NCBI GenBank assembly: GCA_018302545.1
Contig: JAGVZM010000003.1
Location: 40,058 to 104,057, forward strand
DNA: 64,000 nt
Direction: 5' to 3'
DNA from: Candidatus Woesearchaeota archaeon
GTDB lineage: Archaea; Nanobdellota; Nanobdellia; SCGC-AAA011-G17; GW2011-AR18
The notes beneath the pieces are model-generated. The model made no database searches, was not told the origin of the DNA, and saw nothing but the letters and a program-made list of their open reading frames with translations. A program made the position numbers and the translations under genes. Shown piece after piece: positions 2,355 through 59,590 of this stretch (positions are counted from its first letter, which is position 1; the number at the start of each line of letters is the position of its first letter).

Positions 2355-3700
2355 TCTAGTTCGCAATAACACTCTACTCCTTTAGGTCTGAGTGAATTGC
2401 GAAAATATATTCTCCAATATGTCTCTTATAGAACAATGGTGGACGACACGACAAGGGATACGCGCGTAGAACTTATAAACTAAAATTCCTAAATAATTCT
2501 AATGTTAAAAACTTACAAATTCAGAATATATCCAAACAAAAAACAAGAGATAAAACTATTAGAAACTCTAAATCTTTGTAGGTTCACCTACAATAAACAA
2601 TTAGAACTAAAGATAAACAAATATAAAGAAAATAAAGTAAATTTAACACAATTTGATCTAAATAATAACTTAATAATACTAAAAGAAGAAAATAAAGAAT
2701 TAAAACAAATTCATTCTCAAACATTACAAGATATAAATAAAAGAATTAGTTTAGCTTTTAATGGATTTTACAGAAGATTAAATAAAAGAGAACAAGTAGG
2801 TTTTCCTAGATTCAAAAGTAAATATAGATATGATTCAATAACATATCCTCAATCTGGATTCAAATTAGAAAATCAGCTTTATATTTCTAAAATAGGACAA
2901 ATAAATATTATTAAACACAGAGAAATAGAAGGTAAAGTTAAAACCTTAACAATTAAGAAAACTTCTACAAACAAATGGTTTGCATGTTTCTCAGTAGAAC
3001 AAGAAAGTAAGAGTCACTCTAATCTAACAAATGAAGAAACAATTGGAATAGATCTAGGAATAAATCACTTTTATGCAGATTCTAATGGAAATCTAGTAGA
3101 TAATCCAAAATATCTAAGAAAATCAGAGTTAAAGTTAAAGAAATTACAAAGAAAACATTCTAAAAAGTTAAAAGGTTCTAATAATAGAAATAAATCTAGA
3201 TTAAAACTAGCTAATCTACATGAATTAATAAGTAATCAAAGAAATGACTTCTTACATAAACAATCAAGACAATTAGTTAATAATTATAATACAATAGTAG
3301 TAGAAAGATTACAAATAAGTAATATGACTAAAAACCACTATTTAGCTAAATCTATAAATGATGCTTCTTGGAATAAGTTTCTACAACTACTTTCTTACAA
3401 AGTGGAAGAGACTGGTGGAAAGTTAGTAGAAATAGATCCAAGAAATACTAGTCAATTATGTATTTGTGGCAATAAAGTAGAAAAATCATTAGCTACTAGA
3501 GTGCATAGATGCAATAATTGTGGAATAGAAATGGATAGAGATCTTATGTCTGCTTTGATTATTAAGGAAAAGGGAATAAATGATTTTAGTATTATTACCG
3601 TAGGAACTACGGGAATTCAAGCCTGTCAGAGAACTTCAATAGAAGTTCAGTGAAGCAGGACGCTCGGTCCCTTTAGGGCCGAGTAGTTCACATAAAAAGA
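2355..3700 (+). mobile_element. IS200/IS605-family insertion sequence, TnpB-only (IS1341-like), about 1.35 kb
   Basis: Left-end hairpin TTCGCAAT(2360-2367)...ATTGCGAA(2396-2403). Right-end hairpin CTCGGTCCCTTTAGGGCCGAG (3663-3683). Both ends share the motif CCTTTAGGnCnGAGT. The ends are GC-richer than the background. Confidence 0.65.
2502..3653 (+). CDS. tnpB: TnpB (OrfB), RNA-guided nuclease of IS200/IS605 family
   Basis: N-terminal YKFRIYPNKKQ motif. RuvC-like segments (IGIDLGI, VVERLQIS). C-terminal zinc finger CICG...CNNCG. Confidence 0.85.
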   Translation: MLKTYKFRIYPNKKQEIKLLETLNLCRFTYNKQLELKINKYKENKVNLTQFDLNNNLIILKEENKELKQIHSQTLQDINKRISLAFNGFYRRLNKREQVGFPRFKSKYRYDSITYPQSGFKLENQLYISKIGQINIIKHREIEGKVKTLTIKKTSTNKWFACFSVEQESKSHSNLTNEETIGIDLGINHFYADSNGNLVDNPKYLRKSELKLKKLQRKHSKKLKGSNNRNKSRLKLANLHELISNQRNDFLHKQSRQLVNNYNTIVVERLQISNMTKNHYLAKSINDASWNKFLQLLSYKVEETGGKLVEIDPRNTSQLCICGNKVEKSLATRVHRCNNCGIEMDRDLMSALIIKEKGINDFSIITVGTTGIQACQRTSIEVQ

Positions 3701-11595: not shown

Positions 11596-11681
11596 AGCCT
11601 CTGACGGGATTTGAACCCGCGATCTCCGCCTATTTAGACTATTTTACCAAGGCGATGCTCTACCAACTAAGCCACAGAGGC
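11596..11681 (-). tRNA. tRNA-Thr(GGU) with 13-nt intron at position 37/38. No encoded CCA.
   Basis: Manual fold gives acceptor GCCUCUG/CAGAGGC, D-arm with G18G19, anticodon stem UCGCC/GGCGG, loop UUGGUA|A, T-arm GCGGG-UUCAAAU-CCCGU and discriminator U. Confidence 0.85.
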
Positions 11682-12737: not shown

Positions 12738-14159
12738 TTAACCAGCAATCATATATAATCTCTCTCTATATTCAGCGCCTTTACCATCTCTATTAATTTT
12801 ATTTCTTAACTTCCTTAAAGCTTTATAATAATTTTGTTCTACTGCTTGACGGCTTATACCCCATGAACTAGCTATATCAACAAAACTTTCTTTTTTTCCA
12901 GAAAAACCAATTTTTCTCAAAAGTGCATCCCTTTGTCTTTTAGTTAGTTTAGATTCACCCATTAATAATTGAAGATCTGCTCTCAAAGCAAATCTTTCCT
13001 GTCTTAAAAATGATTCTTCTAAATCTACTGAGAATTTCTCATCTTCTAATAATTCAGAGTAGTCCTCTCCATCTTCATTAGACTGAGCATGTATACTGCT
13101 TGTTTTTGGCATCTCTAATAAAACAGTTTCTATTATTTTACATTCTTTAGCAATAACCTCTGATAATGAACCTTCAAAACCATTAAGGTTAGATCCACTT
13201 TCTTTTAGTTTACCAATTAAACCTTCAAAAGTATCACTTTTTTTCCTATCTCTTTTTAATTTTTTAGCTATTTGATGTTCTAAAGATCTTATTGCAACTT
13301 CTTGTTCAGAAGGATCCCTACGTAATTCTTCACTCAATTCTTTTTTAACTCTTTTAATCTTATTATATTTTATACTCCTATCATTAGGTACTCTTATAGT
13401 CCCACTTTGATCTTTTGATCCCCGTATCATATTCCCTCTAATCCTATGCTCTGCATAAGTAAGAAATCTTAAACCAGACCTATGATCATAGAGTTCTACA
13501 GCTCTTTCTAATCCTAAATTTCCTTCTTGAATAGCATCTAAAAGAGATAAGCCCCTTCTTCGTCTTCCATGAGCGAGAGGCACAACTAGATGTAGATTAC
13601 CTTCTATCAACTTACTCTTTATCCCCCTATACATATAAAGATTTTCTTCAATTCCATCTTTGACACTTTTAAACTCTGAATAATCTCCATCCTGAATAAC
13701 ACTTCTAAGATCTGAAGCTGCTTTTCTAATCACAATTGGAGGAATCTCATTAAAGAATCCTCTATATACTTCTTCAGATTTTTCATCACCAATTAGAGCT
13801 TCCATTAATCTTCTATAAGGATGTTTTTCAGGCAAGGAACCAAAACCATCACTTTCAAAATTTTTAATTTGTTCTTTAGAAAATAAACGCGTTTTTGAAG
13901 TTCCCCTATAACTTAAATAGTGTGGAACTAACAAGTACATTCCTGTTCTTCTTGAATAAACTCCTGTTGCTGAATAAGGGAATACTTGTAATTCTGTTGT
14001 AACAAGATAAGAAGCTAAATTATCATGAACAGCTGTTAACTCACCAACAATTCTTCTTTCATCACACTCATCGATCTTAGGTGTTTTAGCAATATTCCTT
14101 AAATATATTGTTTCTGCACTAAGTCCATTATCTGTATTATTTTTATTTTGTTTTTTCAT
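12738..14159 (-). CDS. RNA polymerase sigma-70 family factor (regions 1.2, 2, 3 and 4 all present)
   Basis: Region 2 GLSLLDAIQEGNLGLERAVELYDHRSGLRFLTYAEHRIRGNMIRGSKDQSGTIRVP versus the RpoD consensus [56 protein letters not shown]. Region 4 HTH LTKRQRDALL...ISRQAVEQ. Confidence 0.8.
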   Translation of the reverse strand: MKKQNKNNTDNGLSAETIYLRNIAKTPKIDECDERRIVGELTAVHDNLASYLVTTELQVFPYSATGVYSRRTGMYLLVPHYLSYRGTSKTRLFSKEQIKNFESDGFGSLPEKHPYRRLMEALIGDEKSEEVYRGFFNEIPPIVIRKAASDLRSVIQDGDYSEFKSVKDGIEENLYMYRGIKSKLIEGNLHLVVPLAHGRRRRGLSLLDAIQEGNLGLERAVELYDHRSGLRFLTYAEHRIRGNMIRGSKDQSGTIRVPNDRSIKYNKIKRVKKELSEELRRDPSEQEVAIRSLEHQIAKKLKRDRKKSDTFEGLIGKLKESGSNLNGFEGSLSEVIAKECKIIETVLLEMPKTSSIHAQSNEDGEDYSELLEDEKFSVDLEESFLRQERFALRADLQLLMGESKLTKRQRDALLRKIGFSGKKESFVDIASSWGISRQAVEQNYYKALRKLRNKINRDGKGAEYRERLYMIAG

Positions 14160-16085: not shown

Positions 16086-18674
16086 TCATTTTAACAAATC
16101 TACATCATGATGTCTGCTTTCTTTCATTCCAGCACCAGTAATCCTAATAAACTCTGCATTTTTCCATAACTCATTAATACTCTTAGATCCACAATAACTC
16201 ATCCCACTTTTCAATCCACCAATTAATTGGTAAATAACTTCTGTAACTTTCCCTCTATAAGGAATAGTCCCCTCAACGCCTTCAGGAACAACATCACTTA
16301 TGTCTGCATCATCTTTACCACTTTCTCTTTCTTTCTTACTTTTATTTGCACCAAAACCAGCCATTCCCCTATAAATTTTATATTTCCTTCCTTCCTTTAT
16401 TATTGTTTGTCCAGGACTTTCATCAGTTCCTGCTAACATATTTCCTAACATAACTGTAGAAGCTCCAGCTGCTAAAGCCTTAACAATATCTCCAGATTGT
16501 TTAATTCCACCATCAGCAATAACTGTAATTCCCACTTCATTCGCAACTTTAGCAGAATCCATAACAGCCGTTAATTGAGGCACACCACAACCAGTCTGAA
16601 TTCTAGTTATACAAATTGAATTATGAACTATTGCATTATTTGCTATAAAACTATGAGTAGGACAATCTATTTCCAAATCATAAACTTTAACACATAAATC
16701 TGTTTTTTCATTTTTTAATAATTTTACAACTTGATAATCTTCAGATAATCTTTTTTCTCCTGTATTTATTATTTCAGAAATATAACTTTGGCTAAAATTA
16801 TCCAAATTAGCATTTTTCAAATTACCTTTACTAATTTTCTTTTTTTGATTATTTGGAAATACACCTTTTAATAAATAGTGAACAATATTAAATAATTCTA
16901 TTAATTTTATTGAAGTATTTGAAAATCTTATTCTTCCCCTTTCTTCTATATTTCCATCTGTATCAATTAAACCATCTAAAATACCTTGCAAATATTCTCT
17001 ATTATTAATTAAATATTTTTGTGGTAATTCTTTATTTTTCTTTTTTCCAAAAGATTGTAAAAAATCTGAAAACGGTTTATAATATAAAATAACTTGAATT
17101 ATATTCTCTTTATATGTTACTTTACATTCTTTATTAAAGATATTTATTATAAATTTCATTAATTTATTAACTTTATCAATTTCATGCTTCCCAAAATACC
17201 ATCTAACAGAACCAACACGAGAATTTTTCTTTGAAATGCCGCTATGTGAAGACCCATCACCTAAAAATGTTCCAAAAATATAACCTAATTCATAACAAGG
17301 TTCAAGACTTACATCATTTAGATATTTATATCGAATTATCCAATTACCCCCAACTCTTTTTTTCAAATTAATTTTAAAATATTGTTCTAGTTCAAACTTT
17401 ATTTCTCTAGGAATTAATAAAACATCTTGTCTAAAATCTTTTACTTCTTTCCACTTGTATTTTGAAGCTTTAGGAATTGTTTTGCTTTGTTTTTGTAATA
17501 ATCTTACATAACCCCTACTTTGTATAGTTTCAATTGAAGAAGTATTCAAGTCTCCTACCCAATACCTATGTTCTGGAGTTACATGGGTTTCTTCATAAAA
17601 TATAGAGTTTCTAATTTTTCTAACTTCTTTAATTCCAGTACAAAATGCTTTTTTAACATTCACAGGTTCTCCATTCTTATTTATTACTCTTTCACCAGCC
17701 TTAATTTCTTCAATATTTTTATAAATTCCATTAGACATTAATACCCTAGTTCCTGCAGCAAAACAGCCCCCTCCAACTCCGACCTTAATACAATCTGCTC
17801 CCGCATTAATTAAATCTAAAGTTCCTTCAGCTGTAGCAACATTTCCAGCAATTATTTGAACATCTCCAAATCTATCTTTAATATTTTTTATAGTAGAAAG
17901 AGTCATATCATGATGTCCATGCGCAACATCTATACAAAGAACATCACATCCAACCTTAATTAAAGCTTCAGTTCTATCCAAATAATCTCCTTTAACCCCA
18001 ACAGCAGCACCAACTAATAATCTCCCTTTCTTATCTTTAGTAGCCAGAGGATGTTTCTCTCTATTAGTTATATCCTTAGCAGTAATTAACCCTTTTAAAA
18101 TTCCTTTACTATCAATTAAAGGAAGTTTCTCAATTTTATTTTGCTTTAATATTTCTTTTGCATTTTCAATATCTTTATTTATGTCACCAATAATTGATTT
18201 TTCTTTTGGAGTCATCAAATCTTTAATTTGTTTTAATAAATTGTCCTCAAACATCATATCTGTGTTTGTTAAAATTCCCACATATCTTCCAACATTATCT
18301 GTAATGGGAATTCCTGTAATATTTTTATCCTGCATTAAAATTTTAGCATCTTTTAAATTATGTTCTGGAGTTAAAGTATAAGGATTCTCTATTACAATTG
18401 CTTCTGATCTTTTAACTTTTAAAATTTCTTTAACTTGGTCGTCTATAGTTAAAAATCTATGAATAATTCCAAGACCCCCTTGTCTTGCCATTTCAATTGC
18501 CATTGCACTTTCCGTAACAGTATCCATATTGGCGCTTATTATAGGCATATTTAGTTTAATTTTATTAGTTAAAAAAGAACTTATATCAACATTTTTTCTA
18601 GAATATATATTGGAAAGTTTAGGAACTAATAAAACATCATCATAAGCTAATGCCTCTCTTATTTCATTATTCAT
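16086..18674 (-). CDS. guaB: Inosine-5'-monophosphate dehydrogenase containing an in-frame intein
   Basis: N-extein carries IMPDH and CBS domains. Catalytic loop VGVGGG|SICITR is split by 382 aa starting with Cys and ending HN. The intein holds two LAGLIDADG blocks. Confidence 0.9.
16620..17765 (-). other. Intein (382 aa) with LAGLIDADG homing-endonuclease domain, inserted at the IMPDH catalytic-Cys loop
   Basis: N-terminal Cys1 (CFAAGTRV). C-terminal ...IVHN with +1 Ser. Endonuclease blocks [13 protein letters not shown] and [14 protein letters not shown]. Confidence 0.8.
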
Positions 18675-21718: not shown

Positions 21719-23554
21719 CTATAAACTTTTAGGCGTAAGAGAAATTTCTTGAGAAACATCAACTTTTTCATCTCCTAAATAACCACCATAAAATTTATAC
21801 ATTGTTGTAGGATCAATATAAGCGCTATAGTTCTTTCTTTCAATTTTAAAATCTAATTTAAAACCAAAGTGCAAATGGACTCCACTCTTACCTTTAACCC
21901 TCCCAGTTCTTCCCATCTGCATAAGATCCTGTCCTAAACCAACTTGATCTAAAGGAGAAACATTAAAAGTATTAGGAACACCATGCAAATAGAATGTTTC
22001 AAATCCTAATTCAGGTTTACCATGTCTAACTTTAACATAATAACCATTAATATTATCTGAACCAGTATCTACAACAACCCCATCCATCACTGAATATATA
22101 GGATCTCCTTGAACTCCAGCTGTAGCAGGAGCAATGTCTATACCGTTATGGTGTCTTCCCCACCTTACCCCAAAATAAGAATTTATCTCAGTATTGACAG
22201 TAGGCCAACCTACACCTTGTTTTAAAGTCAAATAATAAGCCATTACTCTCCTTACATAATCATTTGTTTGATAAGTAAGATGATGTAAAACATCCCAGAT
22301 ATCATTGCTTCCAGCTTTTAGTTTTGCTTCTTTAACTTTTTTAGGACCAGCATTGTAATTTGCTAAAATCTCTACTAAAGAATCTTCTCCTGATGATGGG
22401 GAGTATCTACTATAAAGAGCAATACTATACACCGCTGCTCTTATATTTTCAGATGGATCATTTTTTACTTTATCCCAAGAAAATTCTTCACCACTCAAAA
22501 CCCCGCTTCTAATCAACCTATTTAATTCATCAACATTAATTCTTGTTTGTTGAGTAAGTCCATAAGCATCTTCTCCAGATTTTTTTACTTTTCTTTTCTT
22601 CCCATCAAAGTGTTTGAAATCTCCAGATTCAACAATTGCAATGGCTCTTCCAAAATCAGGATCAACCTCAAAATTATTTCTTTGATTAAATCTTTCTGCA
22701 TGATAGGCAAATGCATCCCAATAAGTTAATTGACCTTGTTCAAAAACATAACCTTCTCTACCTCTCCTTATTTCTTCTTTTCTTTTAATCTCCATTCTAG
22801 GAAGTTCAGGAATTTTTATTCTTTCAACCAAGCCGCTAATATCAGGAGTAGTTAATCCTGGTCTTTCAAGTGCAGCATGTGCAGCGCTAACTGAAAATAA
22901 AGCATATAATAAAGGGACTTTAGATGCCATCCTATTCCTTGCAGGAATCTTAGCTTTTTTTCTATTAAAATATCTTGACAAATCTCTACCAACTTTAACA
23001 CCCAATCCTGAAATTAATCCACCAACACCTAATTTAACCAAATCAAAATCATCTATAACAGTATAACCTAAATGTAAAGTTCCAGCACCAGCCACAAGAG
23101 GTAAAAGATATTTATTATTAACAAATTTATTTTCAGTCAAAAATCTCCTAGCATCAACAATTTTTTGATGCACCTTTCTTAATGCTCCTTTACCTTTAAC
23201 AACATAACTTCCTTTACTTTGATCATATAATCTATATAAATTAATACCTGTAGGAACTGCAATTCCAAATATTCCTGTTAAGCTAGCACCCCATTCTAAT
23301 ATAGAATAAGTTGTATCTCCAATAAACATTCCCATTTGAGTGCTTTCAACACTTAAAGCAAGACCTGCAGCACCAGGAATTAACCATTTCTCAACATGGG
23401 GCTTTATATCTCTTAATGTAGAGTTAAGTCTATCATCTAATTTACCAATTCCTTTTAAGAGTATATCTAATCCCATAACAATACAATTACCACAACTAAG
23501 TAGAAAATTTATAAAGATTTGTATAAGATAAAATTTGTCACTAATAAGAGACAA
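21719..23554 (-). CDS. Membrane-anchored peptidoglycan hydrolase with lytic transglycosylase (SLT) and M23 peptidase domains
   Basis: SLT motif ES...GLTQQ. M23 motifs HNGIDIA and HLHFG. N-terminal TM segments. GC-richer. Confidence 0.7.
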   Translation of the reverse strand: MSLISDKFYLIQIFINFLLSCGNCIVMGLDILLKGIGKLDDRLNSTLRDIKPHVEKWLIPGAAGLALSVESTQMGMFIGDTTYSILEWGASLTGIFGIAVPTGINLYRLYDQSKGSYVVKGKGALRKVHQKIVDARRFLTENKFVNNKYLLPLVAGAGTLHLGYTVIDDFDLVKLGVGGLISGLGVKVGRDLSRYFNRKKAKIPARNRMASKVPLLYALFSVSAAHAALERPGLTTPDISGLVERIKIPELPRMEIKRKEEIRRGREGYVFEQGQLTYWDAFAYHAERFNQRNNFEVDPDFGRAIAIVESGDFKHFDGKKRKVKKSGEDAYGLTQQTRINVDELNRLIRSGVLSGEEFSWDKVKNDPSENIRAAVYSIALYSRYSPSSGEDSLVEILANYNAGPKKVKEAKLKAGSNDIWDVLHHLTYQTNDYVRRVMAYYLTLKQGVGWPTVNTEINSYFGVRWGRHHNGIDIAPATAGVQGDPIYSVMDGVVVDTGSDNINGYYVKVRHGKPELGFETFYLHGVPNTFNVSPLDQVGLGQDLMQMGRTGRVKGKSGVHLHFGFKLDFKIERKNYSAYIDPTTMYKFYGGYLGDEKVDVSQEISLTPKSL

Positions 23555-38756: not shown

Positions 38757-39512
38757 ATGGAAACAAAAATATTAGAAGAAATTGGTTTAACACCTGGAGA
38801 AATAAAAGTTTATTTAGCTTTAATCGGCTTAGGAGAAACAACAACAGGACCAATAGTTGATGAAGCTAGAGTCTCAATATCTAAAGTTTATTCAATATTA
38901 GAAAGATTATCTAAAAAAGGTTTAGTAAGCCATGTTGTAAAAAATAATGTAAAATATTTTAAAGCAGCAGATCCAAACAGATTATTAATTTACTTGCAAG
39001 AAAAAGAAGAACATCTAAAAAAACAAGAGCAAGAATTAAAAAAATTTATTCCAGAACTAGAATTAAAACAAAATTCTGCTGTAACTCAAGAAACAGCACA
39101 AGTATTTGATGAATTAAGAGGAATACAAACTGCAAGAGAAAGAACTTTAAAAATTATGAAAAAAGGAGACGAGATGTGGATTATCGGAATTGCAAGAACA
39201 CCCTATGATAAATTAACAGCTTACTTTAAAGATTATCACGAAAGAAGATTCAGAAAAGGAATAAAATGTAAATATCTTTATAATGAATATGCAAAAAATC
39301 CCTTTGGTCAAGAAGCTTCAAAATTTCCATTAAGTGAAGTTAAATATATGCCAGAAGAAATGATAACTCATGCTTGGATGGAAATATATGCCGATACAGT
39401 TACTATTGGTATAAATTTTAAAAAAACTTTTTCTATTGTAATACAAAATCAAGATGTAGCTGATTCATTTAGGAATTATGCTAAATTGCTTTGGAGTATT
39501 GCTAAAAAATAA
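38757..39512 (+). CDS. TrmB-family transcriptional regulator
   Basis: N-terminal LTPGEIKVYLALIGLGETTTGPIVDEARVSISKVYSILERLSKKGLV. Confidence 0.7.
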   Translation: METKILEEIGLTPGEIKVYLALIGLGETTTGPIVDEARVSISKVYSILERLSKKGLVSHVVKNNVKYFKAADPNRLLIYLQEKEEHLKKQEQELKKFIPELELKQNSAVTQETAQVFDELRGIQTARERTLKIMKKGDEMWIIGIARTPYDKLTAYFKDYHERRFRKGIKCKYLYNEYAKNPFGQEASKFPLSEVKYMPEEMITHAWMEIYADTVTIGINFKKTFSIVIQNQDVADSFRNYAKLLWSIAKK

Positions 39513-45195: not shown

Positions 45196-46308
45196 TCATT
45201 TAAATTTAGCAAATTCTTTAATTTTATCAAGTAAACTTTTTTTCTCTTCAGTTTTTTGTAAATCTTTAAACAATTTTTTTTGTTGAGAACTTAATTTTTT
45301 AGGTGTAAAAACATTAACAATCACATACAAATCTCCTCTACCATATCCATCAACATAAGGTACTCCCTTTCCTTTAAGTCTAAAATTAGTCCCACTTTGT
45401 GTTCCAGAAGGGATCTTTATATTAACTTCATTATCTAAAGTAGGAACTTTTATTTCATCACCTAAAGCAGCTTGGCTAAAAGTAATTGGCACGTATAATT
45501 GCAGGTCATTACCTGTTCTTTCAAATATATCACTAGGCTTAACCTTTAAAATAACATATAAATCTCCAGAAATACCACCCCTCATTCCAGCTTCACCAGC
45601 TCTAGGAATTCTTAATCTAGAACCATTATCAACCCCTTTAGGAATTTTAACTTTAACTGTTTTAATTTTACTTAATCTTCCAGTACCATTACATGCTTTG
45701 CATTTATTTTTAATTTGTTTTCCTTCTCCCCCACAATCACTACAACTACTTACACTAGAAAAAACACCAAAAGGAGTTCTCCTATTCATTCTAACTTGGC
45801 CTGTTCCTTCACAACTTGGACAAACTTCTAATTTGCCATCTGAACTTCCTGTCCCATCACAATCCTCGCAAGTATCTAAGATATTTATTTCTATATCTTT
45901 AATAACACCAAATACTGCCTCTTCAAAATCTATCTCTAATTCATAAGCTAAATCTCTACCTCTGTTTTGCCTTCTCCTACTGCTTCCGCCTCCAAAAAAA
46001 GATTCAAAAGGATCTCCTCCGCCAAATATATCCCCAAAAATATCTCTGAAATCAAAATTCCTAAAAATATCTTCTTGGCTATATTTTTGATGGAATCCTG
46101 CATCACCAAATTGATCATATTTTGTTCTTTTCTGGTCATCACTTAGAACAGCATAAGCTTCAGATATATCCTTAAACTTATTAGCTGCCTCAGGATTATC
46201 AGGATTTCTATCAGGGTGATGTTCCATAGCTAGTTTCCTATAAGCTTTTTTAATTTCATCTTTACTAGCACCCTTCTCTACTCCTAAAGTTTTATAATAA
46301 TCACTCAT
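45196..46308 (-). CDS. dnaJ: Chaperone DnaJ
   Basis: J-domain with HPD. G/F region. Four CxxCxGxG repeats. Confidence 0.9.
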   Translation of the reverse strand: MSDYYKTLGVEKGASKDEIKKAYRKLAMEHHPDRNPDNPEAANKFKDISEAYAVLSDDQKRTKYDQFGDAGFHQKYSQEDIFRNFDFRDIFGDIFGGGDPFESFFGGGSSRRRQNRGRDLAYELEIDFEEAVFGVIKDIEINILDTCEDCDGTGSSDGKLEVCPSCEGTGQVRMNRRTPFGVFSSVSSCSDCGGEGKQIKNKCKACNGTGRLSKIKTVKVKIPKGVDNGSRLRIPRAGEAGMRGGISGDLYVILKVKPSDIFERTGNDLQLYVPITFSQAALGDEIKVPTLDNEVNIKIPSGTQSGTNFRLKGKGVPYVDGYGRGDLYVIVNVFTPKKLSSQQKKLFKDLQKTEEKKSLLDKIKEFAKFK

Positions 46309-46733
46309 CTAAACATCCCTATCAACATCGGTTTTGTATAATCATAAACAGTAAATCTAGATCCTATATTTAACCTTTCTTCTTGACATCTAACAAAATC
46401 ATAAAAAGTTCTAACCAAATCTCCTGCTCTTTGTAAATGTTCTAAATCAGGATTTTTTATATAATTACAAACAGATCTGCATAAAGCTCTTCTAATTCTA
46501 TTCCTTTTCTCTTGGCTTTCACCTAATTCTCTTAAATAATCAACTGCTTCTTCAACATAAGTGGCTAAATTTGTTATAGCTTTATTATCTATACCAAAAG
46601 CATCAAATTCTAAAACAAAAGATTTCCTGCCTAAAAATTTGCTTTCATTTGCATCTAAAAAAGAAATAAATCTATCAACAAGTTCTCTATCATCTGAAAA
46701 TTCAGCCTTTGCAAGAGCTTCTTTAAATTTCAT
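46305..46733 (-). CDS. Hypothetical protein inserted between dnaK and dnaJ
   Basis: ORF only. Overlaps dnaJ start. Confidence 0.45.
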   Translation of the reverse strand: MKFKEALAKAEFSDDRELVDRFISFLDANESKFLGRKSFVLEFDAFGIDNKAITNLATYVEEAVDYLRELGESQEKRNRIRRALCRSVCNYIKNPDLEHLQRAGDLVRTFYDFVRCQEERLNIGSRFTVYDYTKPMLIGMFR

Positions 46734-46759
46734 AATAAAAAATGAAAGGTTATAACCTC

Positions 46760-47125
46760 CTATCTCAATTTACTTTTAGCTTCTATCAATATCTGTTCAC
46801 ATTCATCATTAGGGTCACATAACTCTAGTTTTCCATCTAAACCATTATCAACTACCCTGCCTTCTCTAGCAAATCTAGAAGTATCAATTTTCCTTTTGAA
46901 TAAGATTACTAAGGAATCTTCTTTTCCAAAATTGCCTTTTGGCATTTCATCAGTAAAAATTACTTCTGTTTCATTACCAAATTTATAACTTCGTGAATAG
47001 ACCTCGCCCATTGTTATTTGATATGGTGAACCATTTTCATTCACATATTTAGCAATGTCCTTAATATAATAATTATTGGTACAACCAAAGACCCCAATTA
47101 ACGCTAAAGCGAGTAGTCTATTCAT
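46760..47125 (-). CDS. Small lipoprotein-like protein
   Basis: Signal sequence with Cys. Confidence 0.4.
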   Translation of the reverse strand: MNRLLALALIGVFGCTNNYYIKDIAKYVNENGSPYQITMGEVYSRSYKFGNETEVIFTDEMPKGNFGKEDSLVILFKRKIDTSRFAREGRVVDNGLDGKLELCDPNDECEQILIEAKSKLR

Positions 47126-48993
47126 TACTTATCTTCCTCATCATCTACAATTTCAGCATCAACAACTTTTTCTTTTCCACCATTCTTCTTGTCTTTTTTA
47201 ATTTCTCCATCTTTGGCTTCTTTTTCTTGCTTCATGGCATCTTGATACATTTTTGTAGACATTTCATGTATCTTAGTATTAATTTCATCTATCTTTTTCT
47301 TCAATTTATCTATTTCTTTATTTTTAATTAAGTCTCTAATTTCATTCTTCTCTTTCTCGATCTCAGAAATTTTATCTTTGTCTAATTTATCTCCAAAATC
47401 TTTTACACTTTTATCAATTGTATAAACTAAACTCTCAGCTTGGTTTATTACTTCAATTTCTTCTTTCTTCTTTTTATCTTGATCTGCATATTTTTCAGCT
47501 TCTTTTCTCATTCTATCAATTTCTTCTTTATCTAATTTAGTAGATCCAGAGATCCTAATATTTTGTTCTTTTCCAGTGGCTTTATCTTTAGCACCTACAT
47601 GTAAAATTCCATTTGCATCTATATCAAAAGTAACTTCAATTTGGGGAATTCCTCTAGGAGCAGGTGGAATGCCCATTAAATCAAATTTACCTAAGCTTTT
47701 ATTATCTGCAGCCATCTCTCTTTCACCTTGTAAAACATGAATAGTTACAGCTGTTTGATTGTCATCTGCAGTGCTAAATATCTGGCTTTTTTTAGTAGGC
47801 ACAGTAGTATTCCTATCTATTAATGAAGTTCTAACTCCTCCCAGAGTTTCAATACCAAGAGTTAAAGGAGTCACATCTAGTAATAATATATCTTTAACTT
47901 CGCCCCCTAAAACCCCAGCTTGAACCGAAGCCCCCATAGAAACACATTCCATAGGATCTACTCCTCTCTCAGCTTTAGCATTTAATAAATCCTCAACAAA
48001 CTTTTTAACCATTGGAATTCTTGTTGGACCACCAACTAAGATTACTTTATCAACTTCGCCAACTTTTAGACCTGCATCTTTCAAAGCTTGTAAGACTGGT
48101 TTCTTACATCTTTGGACTATTGAGTCTATTAATTCTTCTAATTTAGATCTTGTTAATCTTAATTGTAAATTATTTTGCTCATGTATAAAAGGCAGATTAA
48201 TATCTGTTTCCATCACAGTACTCAATTCTATCTTTGCTCTTTCACTTGCTTCTCTAATTCTTTGTAATGCAACTTGATCATCATTTAGATCAATTCCCGT
48301 CTCTTTCTTAAATTGGTCAATAACAAAATTCATAAGAGTAACATCCATATCTGTTCCACCAAGTTGAGTATCCCCAGATGTAGACTTAACTTCAAAAACG
48401 CCTCCTCCAAAATCCATAACAGTAACATCTAAAGTACCACCACCAAGATCAAAAACTAAAATTTTAGCCTCTTGATCTTGCTTGTCTAAACCATAAGCTA
48501 AAGAAGCAGCTGTAGGCTCATTAACAATCCTTACAACTTCTAAACCAGCTATCTCACCAGCATCTTTAGTTGCTTGTCTTTGATCATCATTAAAATAAGC
48601 TGGAACAGTAATAACAGCCTTCTCAACTTTTTCTCCTAAAAATTCTTCAGCATCTTTCTTTATTTTTTGCAGAATAAAAGCACTTATTTGTTGAGGTGTA
48701 AACTCTTTACCATGAACCTTATATTTAAAATTAGTACCTATCTTTCTTTTTGCAGCTATAATTGTGCCTTGAGGATTAGAAACAGCTTGTCTTCTAGCTG
48801 GTTCACCTACCAACATATTCCCATCTTTAGTAAAAGCAACCACACTTGGAAATGCTTTTCCATATAAACTAGTTCCTTCAGCACTAGGAATCATAACTGG
48901 TCTTCCTGCTTGCAAAACACTCGCAGCAGAATTTGATGTACCTAAATCTATACCTATAATTTTACTCATTTTTTTTACCTCCGTAAATATCAT
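47125..48993 (-). CDS. dnaK: Chaperone DnaK (Hsp70). The true start is probably the internal [11 protein letters not shown] at 48969.
   Basis: [16 protein letters not shown], canonical Hsp70 along the full length. Confidence 0.95.
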
Positions 48994-49159
48994 TTAATTT
49001 ATTTGCTAATCTCTTCTTTTTTGCAGCAAATTCTCTTCTATTCTTTAATGCAGCACATTTATGTTTAATATAATCTTGTTCAAAATAAAAAAATCTTCTA
49101 CATAAAGGACATTGAAAGGGTGTCCCCAAATTTGTTGATTCAACAATTGTTACGCTCAT
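48962..49159 (-). CDS. Small C2HC zinc-finger protein
   Basis: [19 protein letters not shown]. Confidence 0.35.
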
Positions 49160-49303
49160 TTTTTATATAAATTACCCCCTCTTGAATAATTGAACATAGG
49201 TTGAAATACCGTTTTATAACTAATATTACTAGGACTATACATATTTGATTTACTTATACAATATTTTGTCCCGCTTCCTTCATTTCCATGAGCATTGCAC
49301 ATT

Positions 49304-49549
49304 TTATTCAAAATCCTCCCCTAAATATCTTTTTCTCAAGACACTTCCTACTTGATCTATTGTTAAATCAGGTCTTTGATTTCTTAAACCATCACCAATT
49401 TCTACAATTTCTGAAACAGTAGAGTCATAATTTAATTCGTCTATCCTTCCCATGATTATCATTTCCCTAACTATTGGAATAGCTATATAAGCCGCAGTGT
49501 AAACATCAGTTAATCCTTTAATTCCATATCTATTCATTTTTTCCTCCAA
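49304..49549 (-). CDS. Hypothetical protein between grpE and dnaK
   Basis: ORF only. Confidence 0.4.
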   Translation of the reverse strand: MEEKMNRYGIKGLTDVYTAAYIAIPIVREMIIMGRIDELNYDSTVSEIVEIGDGLRNQRPDLTIDQVGSVLRKRYLGEDFE

Positions 49550-50036
49550 CTTTACTTATTCTAACTTTACTAGGCCTCAAAACTTTATTTTTTAGTATAT
49601 ATCCTCTTTGAATTTCATGAACCACAACATCCTCTTCTTCACCATTTATCATATCTATCACTTCATGTTTATATGGGTCAAATTTTTGACCATGAGACTG
49701 AATAATTTCTAATCCTTCTTCTTTTAAGGTCTTATGAAATTGATCCTCAATCATTTTAACACCTTTTAAAGTCTCTTCATCCTTTATTACTTCTATAGCT
49801 TTCTGAAAGCTATCAGCAACAGTCAATAATTTAGTAATTAATTTATGATTTGAAAAATTGACAAATTCTTGTTTCTCTTTTTCAGTTCTCTTCATATAAT
49901 TTTCAAATTCAGCCTGGAGTCTTCTCAAAGTATCCAAATATTCAACAAGTTGTTTTTCTTGTTCTTCAAGCCTTTTTTTAAGCTCTTGCTCTTGCGTTGA
50001 TTTTTCTTCAACTTTTTTATTCATATTAAACTCCAC
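49530..50036 (-). CDS. grpE: Nucleotide exchange factor GrpE
   Basis: Coiled-coil N-terminus and GrpE C-terminal beta-domain (RPSKVRISK). Confidence 0.85.
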   Translation of the reverse strand: MEFNMNKKVEEKSTQEQELKKRLEEQEKQLVEYLDTLRRLQAEFENYMKRTEKEKQEFVNFSNHKLITKLLTVADSFQKAIEVIKDEETLKGVKMIEDQFHKTLKEEGLEIIQSHGQKFDPYKHEVIDMINGEEEDVVVHEIQRGYILKNKVLRPSKVRISKVGGKNE

Positions 50037-56154: not shown

Positions 56155-56230
56155 ACAAATTCCGTTTTCATCTAATTCCAGTCATTATCCAACCAAAAGC
56201 TTTAAAAACACCCCATTTTTGCTATTTAAT

Positions 56231-56403
56231 GGGCGGTCATAGTGGCTTGGTTCCACCCGATCTCATCGATCTATTCAAGATTGAAAGATCTGAGGAATTC
56301 GAACTCGGAATGAGTTTATCTCTATAAATTCACGAGAGAGTTAAGCAAGCCGACGTTTTATGTTGTACTGTTCTTCGAACGGGAAGCATATTTCGCTGCC
56401 CAC
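56231..56403 (+). rRNA. rrf: 5S rRNA, expanded to about 173 nt with two extra hairpins
   Basis: GGGCGGUCAUAGUGG...CCACCCGAUCUCAU...UUCGAACUCGGAA...UUAAGC...GUACUG...CGCUGCCC. The ends pair (GGGCGG/CUGCCC). A TATA-like GCTATTTAAT lies upstream. Confidence 0.7.
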
Positions 56404-56456
56404 CTTATTTTCTCTTAAAGAATAAAGTTTATATAATATCAATTTCTCAAGATTAT

Positions 56457-58565: not shown

Positions 58566-58841
58566 TTGTCTTATCAAGTACATCTTTCTAAAAATGCAGA
58601 TGAATTCTTAGAAAAATTAGATAAACACCTAAATGAGAGAATCAAAAAGCGATTAATAAAGCTGGCAGAGAATCCAATACCAACTGATGCAAAATTCATC
58701 ACACGTGATAAATCAGAAGATAAAATTTTTCGATATAGGATTGGAGAATATAGAGCACTTTATAAGATAAAAGAAAAAGAAAGGATTGTTCTTATTGCTG
58801 AGATTGACAAAAGACCAAGAATATATGATAAAATTAATTAA
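58566..58841 (+). CDS. relE: RelE/ParE-family toxin
   Basis: YRIGEYRALYKIKEKERIVLIAEIDKRPRIY matches the RelE C-terminal signature. Confidence 0.7.
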   Translation: MSYQVHLSKNADEFLEKLDKHLNERIKKRLIKLAENPIPTDAKFITRDKSEDKIFRYRIGEYRALYKIKEKERIVLIAEIDKRPRIYDKIN

Positions 58842-59590
58842 TTTTTCCGATCAGCAATTTTCCATAAATATTCAAAATGATTTTTATAAGTTTCAGCTAT
58901 ATCTTTATTTTTAATCATAATTGCAGTTATAGGATTTCCCCAAGTAACAATAACAACTTTATCCCCATAAACAAAGGTATTTGTTGGATTAAAATCTTTA
59001 GCTTCCAAAAACCTATATTCTGTATTAGGTGCAACATCTTTATCAAATAAAAATACATCTTTGCTTTTTACAGTTATAATTCTTTCATTTATTTTATTAT
59101 TTCTCAAATCTCTAAAATATTGCTTCATAAAAATAGGTAAAGCTTCTTCATATTTTTTATCTTCTATGCCTGTAACTAAAACATCTTTTTCAGTTTTAAT
59201 AATGTCTTTAAGAAAATATTTCAAACCTTCACTGCCTCTAAAAACTTCAACAAAAGTATCTTCTCTAGGTAATTTCATAAATGATTCTAATTCTGGAAGA
59301 ATCTTCTCAAAATCTTTTTCTTGTTCATCTAAAATTCTTTTCTTTTCATCTAAATATTGTTTAATTTTTGAAGGATGAACTGCTTGAAAATGTTTCTTTG
59401 CTCCTTTTAAAACAGTTGTTACTAAGCCTTTTTCAATTAATTGTTCCAATTTATCATAGACATGTACCCTATAAATCCTAGTTCTATTAGAAATTTCATA
59501 AGCAGAACTAAGTCCTGATTTTAATAAATCTAAATATATTTTTATCTCATTATCAGTAAGCCCTAATTTTCTTAACACAGTATCATCCAT
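58838..59590 (-). CDS. TrmB-family transcriptional regulator (second copy)
   Basis: LTDNEIKIYLDLLKSGLSSAYEISNRTRIYRVHVYDKLEQLIEKGLV. Confidence 0.7.
   Translation of the reverse strand: MDDTVLRKLGLTDNEIKIYLDLLKSGLSSAYEISNRTRIYRVHVYDKLEQLIEKGLVTTVLKGAKKHFQAVHPSKIKQYLDEKKRILDEQEKDFEKILPELESFMKLPREDTFVEVFRGSEGLKYFLKDIIKTEKDVLVTGIEDKKYEEALPIFMKQYFRDLRNNKINERIITVKSKDVFLFDKDVAPNTEYRFLEAKDFNPTNTFVYGDKVVIVTWGNPITAIMIKNKDIAETYKNHFEYLWKIADRKN
58839..58874. repeat. Right copy of the ~36-bp direct repeat. This is the authentic 3' end of the trmB-like gene.
   Basis: See the left copy. About 31 of 36 positions are identical. Confidence 0.6.

What the first reader, a model, noticed from the sequence alone, without database searches (positions are those of the whole stretch)
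56231..56403. Expanded 5S rRNA with two extra hairpins
The gene has all the 5S landmarks: GGUCAUAGUGG, CCACCCGAUCUCAU, CCGAACUCGGAA, UUAAGC, GUACUG and pairing ends. It is about 173 nt rather than about 120-130 nt. Two insertions form local hairpins. One is GAUCU-AUUCAAGAUUGAA-AGAUC after the CCCGAUCUCAU segment. The other is CUCU-AUAAAUUCACG-AGAG between CGGAA and UUAAGC. Insertions in 5S rRNA are rare. I recall the classic case is Halococcus morrhuae, but have not verified this.
Basis: seen in the sequence. Interest (0 to 1): 0.6.

Follow-up and report, generated by a model that had tools for sequence, protein, structure and literature searches.

The report
5S rRNA gene with two introns
This is the 5S ribosomal RNA gene of a tiny uncultured archaeon, and its two extra pieces look like short introns that the tRNA-splicing enzyme would cut out, which I found no report of for any 5S rRNA gene.

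Summary
The 5S rRNA gene is real: window 56230-56404 (+), 175 nt, with its own TATA box and a T-rich stop. Rfam RF00001 matches it end to end, but at 33.9 bits, below the curated cut-off of 38.

Nine other distinct Woesearchaeota/Nanoarchaeota 5S genes carry them. All ten have the first insert; eight have the second.

Both inserts fit the archaeal bulge-helix-bulge (BHB) splicing motif. A 4-bp helix pairs exon bases with the 3' end of the insert, with 3-nt unpaired stretches on opposite strands and a variable inner hairpin that keeps its pairing. Only the motif-forming bases of the inserts are conserved.

Cutting at the standard BHB positions turns all ten genes (137-175 nt) into RNAs of 113-116 nt. 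Each folds alone into the classic 5S shape. The second junction equals the sequence of relatives that lack that insert.

My best reading (about 0.7) is two tandem mini-introns of 31 and 29 nt around a 12-nt middle exon. Retained expansion segments remain possible (about 0.2), and no RNA data were available. I found no published 5S rRNA intron.

The parts
56201..56208 (+). TATA box (TTTAAAAA) of a stand-alone archaeal promoter, 29 nt upstream of the gene start
   Evidence: Sequence. In the relatives checked, a TTTATAAAT or TTTTAAATA box sits at about -31 to -28. Promoter function is inferred.
56230..56404 (+). 5S rRNA gene (precursor, 175 nt)
   Evidence: RF00001 matches positions 1-120 at 33.9 bits, E 2.5e-5. 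Core helices I-V are 94.7% paired across 10 genes, with 12 compensatory pairs.
56230..56266 (+). Exon 1 (37 nt): helix I 5' strand, loop A, helix II and III 5' strands, first half of loop C (ends ...GAUCUCAU)
   Evidence: Alignment A2 columns 1-37; in-silico splicing.
56267..56297 (+). Predicted intron 1 (31 nt) in loop C, at E. coli position 40/41
   Evidence: BHB1 elements: outer helix 56258-56260 with 56299-56301 (CGA:UCG); central helix 56261-56264 with 56292-56295 (UCUC:GAGG); unpaired 56265-56267 (AUC) and 56296-56298 (AAU); inner stem 56268-56272 with 56286-56290. There is one extra U at 56291..
56298..56309 (+). Exon 2, a 12-nt micro-exon (UUCGAACUCGGA): second half of loop C plus helix III 3' strand
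   Evidence: Invariant in all 10 genes. The search pattern fixed ten of these twelve bases. It lies between the two predicted introns.
56310..56338 (+). Predicted intron 2 (29 nt) at the conserved AA bulge of helix III, at E. coli position 52/53
   Evidence: BHB2 elements: central helix 56304-56307 with 56333-56336 (CUCG:CGAG, invariant in 8/8); unpaired 56308-56310 (GAA) and 56337-56339 (AGA); inner stem 56311-56319 with 56324-56332, where 6 of 9 pairs covary..
56339..56404 (+). Exon 3 (66 nt): AGUUAAGC..., helix II 3' strand, helices V and IV, helix I 3' strand
   Evidence: Alignment A2 columns 111-177.
56405..56416 (+). T-rich stretch (TTATTTTCTCTT), the likely archaeal transcription stop
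   Evidence: Sequence. Relatives also have T-rich sequence right after the gene. Terminator function is inferred.

Best explanation
This is the 5S rRNA gene of a Candidatus Woesearchaeota (DPANN) archaeon, interrupted by two short archaeal bulge-helix-bulge (BHB) introns of 31 and 29 nt. They sit 12 nt apart, in loop C and at the AA bulge of helix III.

Proposed steps:
1. The gene is transcribed from its own TATA promoter as a precursor of about 175 nt (inferred).
2. Helices I, II, IV and V fold as in any 5S. The helix III/loop C arm first folds into two tandem BHB motifs. In each, four exon bases pair with the conserved 3' end of the insert (UCUC:GAGG and CUCG:CGAG), with 3-nt unpaired stretches on opposite strands (shown by comparison and energy).
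3. The tRNA splicing endonuclease EndA cuts after the second base of each unpaired stretch. RtcB joins the three exons (37 + 12 + 66 nt) and probably circularises the introns (inferred by analogy).
4. The freed UCGG then pairs with CCGA to form mature helix III. The product is a canonical 115-nt 5S rRNA.
For: 1. The BHB fold is 96.8% paired across 10 genes, with 12 pairs changed on both sides. No shuffle of 500 reached this, and slid controls pair only 25-56%.
2. Eight of 10 genes have a strict 3-4-3 motif at site 1, with a 3-bp outer helix and the identical junction CCCAU|UUCGAAC. Seven of 8 pass at site 2 with the junction CUCGGA|AGUUAAGC. The background rate of such motifs in this AT-rich window is 3.9e-5 (strict) or 5.9e-4 (central helix plus inner stem) per fixed site and length.
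3. Inside the inserts only the motif-forming bases are conserved, at 84% and 96% identity. The inner stem and loop are at 35% and 61%, and exons at 81%. This explains the invariant CGAG and nearly invariant AGA tail.
4. Splicing in silico turns genes of 137-175 nt into RNAs of 113-116 nt. Each folds alone into the 5S Y shape with a 7-nt loop C. The spliced RNA has 4 nt between CCCA and GAAC, as in the Rfam consensus.
5. L002 and L004 lack insert 2 and read CUCGGAAGUUAAGC, exactly the predicted ligation product. L004's nearest relatives (83-89% exon identity) carry the insert.
6. The double-BHB fold is the unconstrained minimum-energy structure in L001 and L009. It is 0.8-2.5 kcal/mol better than a fold with mature helix III forced in all 8 two-insert genes.
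7. The same window holds a tRNA-Thr with a canonical 13-nt BHB intron, so the organism uses this pathway.
8. Published 5S expansion segments lack complementarity to the core and, with one exception, do not interrupt conserved motifs. Both inserts here do the opposite. Site 1 (E. coli 40/41) lies next to positions 42-43, which uL5 blocks in bacteria (PMC7812874).
9. Short (<50 nt) hairpin BHB introns are known in 16S rRNA genes (PMC4496867). Diverse DPANN EndAs carry the L3 loop, which is associated with increased tRNA gene disruption and, like the other specific loops, is thought to broaden substrate specificity (PMC5829648).
Against: 1. There are no RNA data, so excision is inferred only.
2. 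The window's own BHB1 is the least canonical of the ten. It has an extra U (56291) between the inner stem and the central helix, a U-G pair in that helix, and a local minimum-energy fold that is an irregular hairpin. L002 shares the extra U.
3. BHB2 has only a weak conventional outer helix (2 of 3 positions pair).
4. RNAalifold, run without guidance, prefers mature helix III stacked on the site-1 central helix. That is the fold a retained insert would take. In the one-insert genes it is the minimum-energy structure, better by 1.7-3.9 kcal/mol.
5. The exon sides of the outer helix and of the site-2 central helix are invariant, partly because the search pattern fixed them. They therefore offer no covariation. 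The one compensatory change in a central helix (columns 34:64, CG to UA in the window) fits both models.
6. Site 2 is also one of the most permissive sites for true expansion segments in bacteria.
7. The motif was recognised after looking at the data, and each insert probably arose once.
8. No EndA or RtcB gene lies in the window.
Confidence: 0.7

Rival explanations
1. Retained expansion segments. The two inserts stay in the mature 5S rRNA as extra hairpins that project from loop C and the helix III bulge, as in Halococcus morrhuae or Thermoanaerobacterium.
For: - Expanded 5S rRNAs exist, with up to three segments per molecule. Loop C and the helix III bulge (52-53) are among the least obstructed sites in bacteria (PMC7812874).
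- RNAalifold's unguided consensus keeps mature helix III with the site-1 central helix and inner stem stacked on it.
- That fold is the minimum-energy structure in L002 and L004.
- The window's own site-1 motif is imperfect.
Against: - It does not explain why both inserts have a 4-bp helix to exon bases flanked by 3-nt unpaired stretches placed to give the canonical product.
- It does not explain an invariant CGAG that competes with helix III for CUCG.
- Only the motif-forming bases of the inserts are conserved.
- Known expansion segments lack complementarity to the core, and insert 1 splits the conserved loop C motif.
Confidence: 0.2
2. Cleaved but not ligated. EndA cuts at the BHB motifs and the 5S rRNA works as fragments held together by base pairing (a fragmented rRNA).
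For: It shares the BHB evidence of the main model. Fragmented rRNAs are known in other systems (my own knowledge).
Against: The 12-nt middle exon would be held only by the helix III pairs. In archaea, EndA cuts are normally followed by RtcB ligation (PMC4496867). Nothing in the sequence specifically points to this.
Confidence: 0.04
3. A decaying or non-functional 5S copy (pseudogene), with a normal 5S gene elsewhere in the genome.
For: Only 64 kb of the genome was seen. Stepanov and Fox describe 5S remnants and possible pseudogenisation in some bacteria.
Against: - Core helices are 94.7% paired with 12 compensatory pairs across 10 lineages at 70-97% identity.
- The promoter and T-rich stop are conserved.
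- There is no second 5S in the window or in the related loci.
- Nanobdellota genomes usually have a single set of rRNA genes (bioRxiv 10.64898/2026.05.13.725050).
Confidence: 0.03

Closest known systems
Short (<50 nt) hairpin-forming BHB introns in 16S rRNA genes of Thermoproteales (Jay and Inskeep 2015, PMC4496867)
   Same: Tiny introns with no ORF inside an rRNA gene. Each is a hairpin that keeps the bulge-helix-bulge core, sits in conserved rRNA sequence, and is removed by the tRNA splicing endonuclease and RtcB. Two introns can lie a few nucleotides apart: 7-8 nt there, 12 nt here.
   Different: The host gene is 5S rRNA, not 16S or 23S. The lineage is DPANN (Woesearchaeota), not Crenarchaeota. 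No partner intron with a homing endonuclease is seen. Splicing here is predicted, not shown.
Archaeal tRNA introns with the hBHBh' motif, including the tRNA-Thr(GGU) intron in this window (11596-11681, minus strand)
   Same: A 4-bp exon:intron helix, two 3-nt bulges, similar lengths (13 nt versus 29-31 nt), and the same predicted cut positions after the second bulge base.
   Different: The host is an rRNA. The motif competes with a helix of the mature RNA (helix III) instead of extending the anticodon stem. BHB2 lacks a normal outer helix, and the window's BHB1 has an extra base.
Expanded 5S rRNAs of Halococcus morrhuae and Thermoanaerobacterium (Stepanov and Fox 2021, PMC7812874; PMC7530397)
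   Same: An oversized 5S gene with self-pairing insertions. One site (the helix III bulge, 52-53) is shared with the thermoanaerobacterial type. Both kinds are easily missed by annotation.
   Different: Those inserts are retained in the ribosome, as shown experimentally for two species. They have no complementarity to the core and do not split conserved motifs. The archaeal cases sit at 104.1-105, not in the loop C/helix III arm. They have no BHB geometry.
[quoted passage not shown] PMC10515664, PMC7714728)
   Same: EndA acts on an rRNA precursor. A BHB with one extra nucleotide is still cut in vitro in M. maripaludis.
   Different: Those motifs flank the rRNA and release or circularise it. 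Here they lie inside the mature-coding sequence, so the exons must be ligated.

Membership tests
5S rRNA (Rfam RF00001) | Full-length match to the covariance model at or above the curated gathering score (38 bits) | tested here: inconclusive
   The match is full length (1-120) with E 2.5e-5, but at 33.9 bits it is below 38. Relatives with one insert score 61.5-66.6 and those with two inserts score 37.3-42.9. The shortfall tracks the inserts.
5S rRNA (Rfam RF00001) | Helices I-V with compensatory changes; conserved loop A, loop C and loop E sequences | tested here: met
   36 core pairs are 94.7% paired across 10 genes, 12 of them with changes on both sides. CAUAG, CCCGAU, CGAACUCGGAAGUUAAGC (after in-silico splicing) and GUACUG are all present.
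Archaeal BHB (hBHBh') intron | A 4-bp central helix flanked by two 3-nt bulges on opposite strands, with outer and inner helices | tested here: met
   Site 1 is strict in 8 of 10 genes, including a 3-bp outer helix. The window and L002 deviate by one extra U. At site 2 the central helix and both 3-nt stretches are present in 8 of 8, the inner stem is 5-9 bp, and the outer helix is weak. For the window alone the match is relaxed rather than strict.
Archaeal BHB (hBHBh') intron | Removal at the canonical cut positions restores a functional host RNA | tested here: met
   The spliced RNAs are 113-116 nt and fold into the 5S shape. The site-2 junction equals the insert-free relatives L002 and L004. 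The spacing in loop C matches the Rfam consensus.
Archaeal BHB (hBHBh') intron | The intron is actually excised and the exons ligated in the cell | not testable with these tools
   No transcriptome data were accessible.
Archaeal BHB (hBHBh') intron | The host encodes the splicing endonuclease EndA and the ligase RtcB | tested here: inconclusive
   Neither family was found among the window's ORFs of at least 80-90 aa, but the window is only 64 kb. A BHB intron in the window's tRNA-Thr implies the pathway exists. DPANN EndAs are described in PMC5829648.
5S rRNA expansion segment (sensu Stepanov and Fox 2021) | The insert is retained in mature, ribosome-bound 5S rRNA | not testable with these tools
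   This needs RNA or a ribosome structure.
5S rRNA expansion segment (sensu Stepanov and Fox 2021) | The insert is self-contained, has no notable complementarity to the core, and does not interrupt conserved motifs | tested here: not met
   GGGA/GAGG pairs with core UCCC/UCUC, and CGAG pairs with core CUCG. Insert 1 splits the conserved loop C sequence CCCAU^UUCGAAC. The criteria come from PMC7812874.

The most novel reading that the evidence does not exclude
These would be the first introns described in any 5S rRNA gene. In a clade of Woesearchaeota, 5S rRNA maturation would depend on the tRNA splicing machinery (EndA and RtcB). It would pass through a precursor fold with two tandem BHB motifs and a 12-nt micro-exon. 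Each 5S made would release two circular RNAs of about 30 nt, so in step with ribosome production. Because the inserts push the gene to or below Rfam's cut-off, such genes are also systematically under-annotated in DPANN genomes.
Probability: 0.55. Interest if true: 0.75.

Novelty: new member of a known kind. Interest (0 to 1): 0.62.

Why it matters
- **A new host gene for archaeal introns.** BHB introns are known in tRNA, 16S, 23S and a few mRNAs. Full-text searches of about 8 million papers found no report of one in 5S rRNA. If spliced, these would tie all three rRNAs of an archaeon to the tRNA splicing enzymes.
- **A demanding natural substrate.** Two adjacent motifs and a 12-nt exon would be a useful test of DPANN endonuclease specificity and of the order of splicing.
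- **An evolutionary question.** It would show that intron spread in small-genome symbionts reaches even the smallest rRNA.
- **A practical consequence.** Two-insert genes score 33.9-42.9 bits against a cut-off of 38. Standard pipelines will therefore miss some of them, which affects '5S present' criteria for genome quality in DPANN.
- **If the inserts are retained instead.** They would be the first 5S expansion segments outside Halobacteriales in Archaea, which is also new but less surprising.

Tried and rejected
- **ARAGORN on the window.** It found no tRNA, because it missed the intron-containing tRNA-Thr that Rfam finds.
- **Rfam at the gathering threshold.** It misses the 5S. The E-value mode was needed.
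Rejected: 29% paired in relatives.
- **Simple BHB scanner as a significance test on one sequence.** Lax motifs are common in this AT-rich DNA: 234 strict and 3545 relaxed hits in 128 kb over 47 intron lengths. A single-sequence hit therefore means little. Only the per-site rate combined with conservation is informative. The strict scanner also does not pick up the window's own site-1 motif.
- **Metagenome pattern scan.** Of 32 loci, 25 were chance matches and 7 were true 5S genes, of which 2 duplicated loci from the genome scan.
- **Two scans of viral contigs for insert-bearing 5S.** Both returned nothing.
- **Looking for more 5S genes through neighbouring genes.** The flanking proteins are not syntenic in relatives. 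Homologues of the downstream 496-aa protein lie next to an NFACT_N gene, not a 5S.
- **Search for EndA or RtcB in the window.** Neither was found.
- **Assembly artefact.** Rejected: an identical copy is in an independent assembly and the architecture is conserved in relatives.

Full report
**1. What is there**

Window 56230-56404 (+) lies in a 302-nt gap between two ORFs. Rfam's 5S model RF00001 matches it over all 120 model positions at 33.9 bits. E is 2.5e-5 on the local stretch and 0.0035 on the whole window. That is below the curated cut-off of 38, so the default scan of the window reports only a tRNA. Infernal absorbs the extra sequence as a single 68-nt insertion in the helix III/loop C arm.

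A TATA box (TTTAAAAA, 56201-56208) sits 29 nt upstream, and a T-rich stretch follows the 3' end. The relatives have the same layout. No second 5S is in the window.

The genome is about 29% G+C. It encodes archaeal markers: aTrm56, family B DNA polymerase, ABCE1 and the RNase P subunit Rpp21. The gene downstream of the 5S is recorded at NCBI as a hypothetical protein of a Candidatus Woesearchaeota archaeon, locus tag J4216_. A separate Logan assembly of run SRR2090155 contains the identical 5S gene.

**2. Relatives**

One pattern scan of species-representative genomes gave four hits, all Woesearchaeota or Nanoarchaeota MAGs. One metagenome scan gave 32 loci. Of these, 7 are true 5S genes (2 duplicate loci from the genome scan) and 25 are chance matches.

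Together with the window this makes ten distinct genes, aligned as A2. All ten carry insert 1, and eight carry insert 2. L002 and L004 read CUCGGAAGUUAAGC at site 2.

The core 5S helices are 94.7% paired, with 12 pairs changed on both sides. These are functional genes under selection, at 70-97% exon identity to one another.

**3. Anatomy of the inserts**

*Insert 1* follows CCCAU in loop C, at E. coli position 40/41. Eight of the ten genes have exactly this layout:
- outer helix CGA:UCG (3 bp);
- central helix UCCC:GGGA (4 bp, exon bases paired with insert bases);
- 3 unpaired nt (AUA) on the 5' strand;
- an inner hairpin of 4-8 bp with a variable loop;
- 3 unpaired nt (AGU) on the 3' strand.

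*Insert 2* sits at the conserved AA bulge of helix III, at position 52/53. Its layout is:
- central helix CUCG:CGAG (4 bp, invariant in 8 of 8);
- unpaired GAA and AGA (AAA in L008);
- an inner stem of 5-9 bp.

This is the bulge-helix-bulge motif cut by the archaeal tRNA splicing endonuclease.

Pair counts for this fold across the alignment:
- 96.8% of cells are paired, and 12 pairs are changed on both sides;
- 0 of 500 shuffles reach the observed values, and slid controls pair only 25-56%;
- all 5 pairs of inner stem 1 and 6 of 9 pairs of inner stem 2 covary;
- one central-helix pair is C-G in nine genes and U-A in the window.

**4. Is the motif more than chance?**

A scanner for strict motifs finds 234 hits on both strands of the window over 47 intron lengths. 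It requires a 3/3 outer helix, a 4/4 central helix, 3-nt bulges and an inner stem of at least 4 bp. That is 3.9e-5 per fixed site and length. Without the outer helix the rate is 5.9e-4. A lone hit somewhere in AT-rich DNA therefore means little.

A hit at the one site and length that restores a canonical 5S is improbable. Here it happens at two sites and is maintained across lineages in which the insert interiors have diverged to 35% identity. Inside the inserts, only the motif-forming bases are conserved: 84% and 96% identity, against 35% and 61% for the inner stem and loop, and 81% for exons. This accounts for the invariant CGAG and nearly invariant AGA tail of insert 2.

**5. Splicing in silico**

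The cut rule is after the second base of each 3-nt bulge. This is the standard rule from my own knowledge of BHB introns. It agrees with the canonical 37/38 intron of the tRNA-Thr(GGU) gene in this same window. That intron has central helix UUGG:CUAA, bulges UAA and AUA, and a length of 13 nt.

Applied to the 5S genes, the rule gives these results:
- The window's introns are 56267-56297 (31 nt) and 56310-56338 (29 nt).
- The exons are 37, 12 and 66 nt.
- All ten genes (137-175 nt) collapse to 113-116 nt.
- Each product folds on its own into the canonical 5S Y shape, with the AA bulge and a 7-nt loop C.
- The product has 4 nt between CCCA and GAAC, as in the Rfam consensus.
- The site-2 junction equals the sequence of L002 and L004.
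- L004's closest relatives (83-89% exon identity) all carry insert 2, so the insert has been gained or lost precisely.

**6. Energetics**

The two BHB motifs and mature helix III exclude each other, because they use the same CGA and CUCG bases. From:

| Genes | Result |
|---|---|
| L001, L009 (two inserts) | The double-BHB fold is the unconstrained minimum-energy structure |
| Other six two-insert genes | The double-BHB fold is within 0.5-3.6 kcal/mol of the minimum |
| All eight two-insert genes | The double-BHB fold is 0.8-2.5 kcal/mol better than a fold with mature helix III forced |
| L002, L004 (one insert) | The mature-like fold wins by 1.7-3.9 kcal/mol |

The outer helix of BHB1 is complete before the 3' strand of helix III is transcribed. 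Co-transcriptional formation of the motif is therefore plausible (inference).

**7. Evidence for the rival (retained expansion segments)**

- RNAalifold, run without guidance, returns mature helix III with the site-1 central helix and inner stem stacked on it. It also returns the inner stem of insert 2. That is what a retained insert would look like.
- Site 52-53 is one of the least obstructed sites for true 5S expansion segments in bacteria (PMC7812874).
- The window's own BHB1 is the least canonical of the ten. It has an extra U at 56291, a U-G pair in the central helix, and a local minimum-energy fold that is an irregular hairpin. L002 shares the extra U.
- BHB2 has only a weak outer helix.
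- The exon sides of the outer helix and of the site-2 central helix are invariant, partly because my search pattern fixed them. No covariation can be read there.

Points against the rival:
[quoted passage not shown] Positions 42-43 are blocked by uL5 in bacteria. Insert 1 splits the conserved loop C sequence at 40/41, and both inserts pair with core bases.
- An M. maripaludis pre-16S BHB with one extra nucleotide is still cut by EndA in vitro (PMC10515664).
- Diverse DPANN EndAs carry the L3 loop. It is associated with increased tRNA gene disruption and, like the other specific loops, is thought to broaden substrate specificity (PMC5829648).

**8. Comparison with what is known**

- The closest analogues are the short (<50 nt) hairpin BHB introns of Thermoproteales 16S rRNA genes (PMC4496867) and ordinary tRNA introns.
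- Expanded 5S rRNAs are known in Halobacteriales and some Firmicutes: 89 cases, with no DPANN and no metagenomic data (PMC7812874). Those authors note that excision cannot be excluded without RNA data.
- Full-text searches found no paper with the phrases '5S rRNA intron(s)', 'intron in the 5S', 'introns in 5S' or 'intron-containing 5S'.
- Nothing relevant came from searches combining 5S rRNA with BHB, DPANN or Woesearchaeota.
- A 2026 preprint on 208 complete Nanobdellota genomes detects 5S by cmsearch. It notes some genomes (three named) without a detectable 5S and says nothing about inserts.

**9. Verdict**

The interpretation 'expanded mature 5S' is less likely than 'two tandem BHB mini-introns', which I put at about 0.7 against 0.2.

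The mechanism from cleavage onward is inferred. The motif, its conservation, the covariation and the exactness of the in-silico product are shown.

Two-insert genes score 33.9-42.9 bits against a cut-off of 38, and 3 of 8 fall below it. Such genes will be under-annotated.

Noticed in passing
window 11596-11681 (-): A tRNA-Thr(GGU) gene with a 13-nt canonical bulge-helix-bulge intron at 37/38 (central helix UUGG:CUAA, bulges UAA and AUA). Rfam finds it at 60 bits. ARAGORN in its default mode reports no tRNA in the whole window.
   Followed up: partly
window 16086-18674 (-): An IMP dehydrogenase ORF of 862 aa that carries an intein (Hom_end-associated Hint domain inside the IMPDH domain).
   Followed up: no
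window 12738-14159 (-): A 473-aa ORF with a bacterial Sigma-70 region 2 domain (E 1.8e-10) in an otherwise archaeal genome.
   Followed up: no
window 21719-23554 (-): A 611-aa ORF that combines a lytic transglycosylase (SLT) domain with an M23 peptidase domain. These are bacterial murein-hydrolase domains, found here in a DPANN archaeon, and could be a tool for attacking a bacterial host or prey.
   Followed up: no
window 2502-3653 (+): An IS605-family OrfB/TnpB (Cas12f-like TNB domain) transposon-associated nuclease gene.
   Followed up: no
window 45196-50036 (-): A bacterial-type chaperone cluster: grpE (49530-50036), dnaK (47125-48993) and dnaJ (45196-46308), with two small unassigned ORFs in between.
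   Followed up: no
window 58566-59590 and 38757-39512: A ParE toxin gene (58566-58841) overlaps the end of a TrmB-family regulator gene on the opposite strand. A second TrmB-family regulator lies at 38757-39512.
   Followed up: no
L002 and L004 (also L024 and L036), 5S genes: These relatives carry only the loop C insert and score 61.5-66.6 bits with RF00001, against 33.9-42.9 for two-insert genes. L004's nearest relatives all have the second insert, so that insert has been precisely lost or gained within a shallow clade.
   Followed up: partly
window 56291; L002 equivalent position: The window and L002 share one extra U between the inner stem and the central helix of the first motif. This makes their motif non-canonical: either a 5-bp helix with a 2-3-nt bulge, or a 4-bp helix with an opposing 1-nt bulge. 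I could not tell whether this reflects a tolerant endonuclease or loss of splicing in that sub-lineage.
   Followed up: partly
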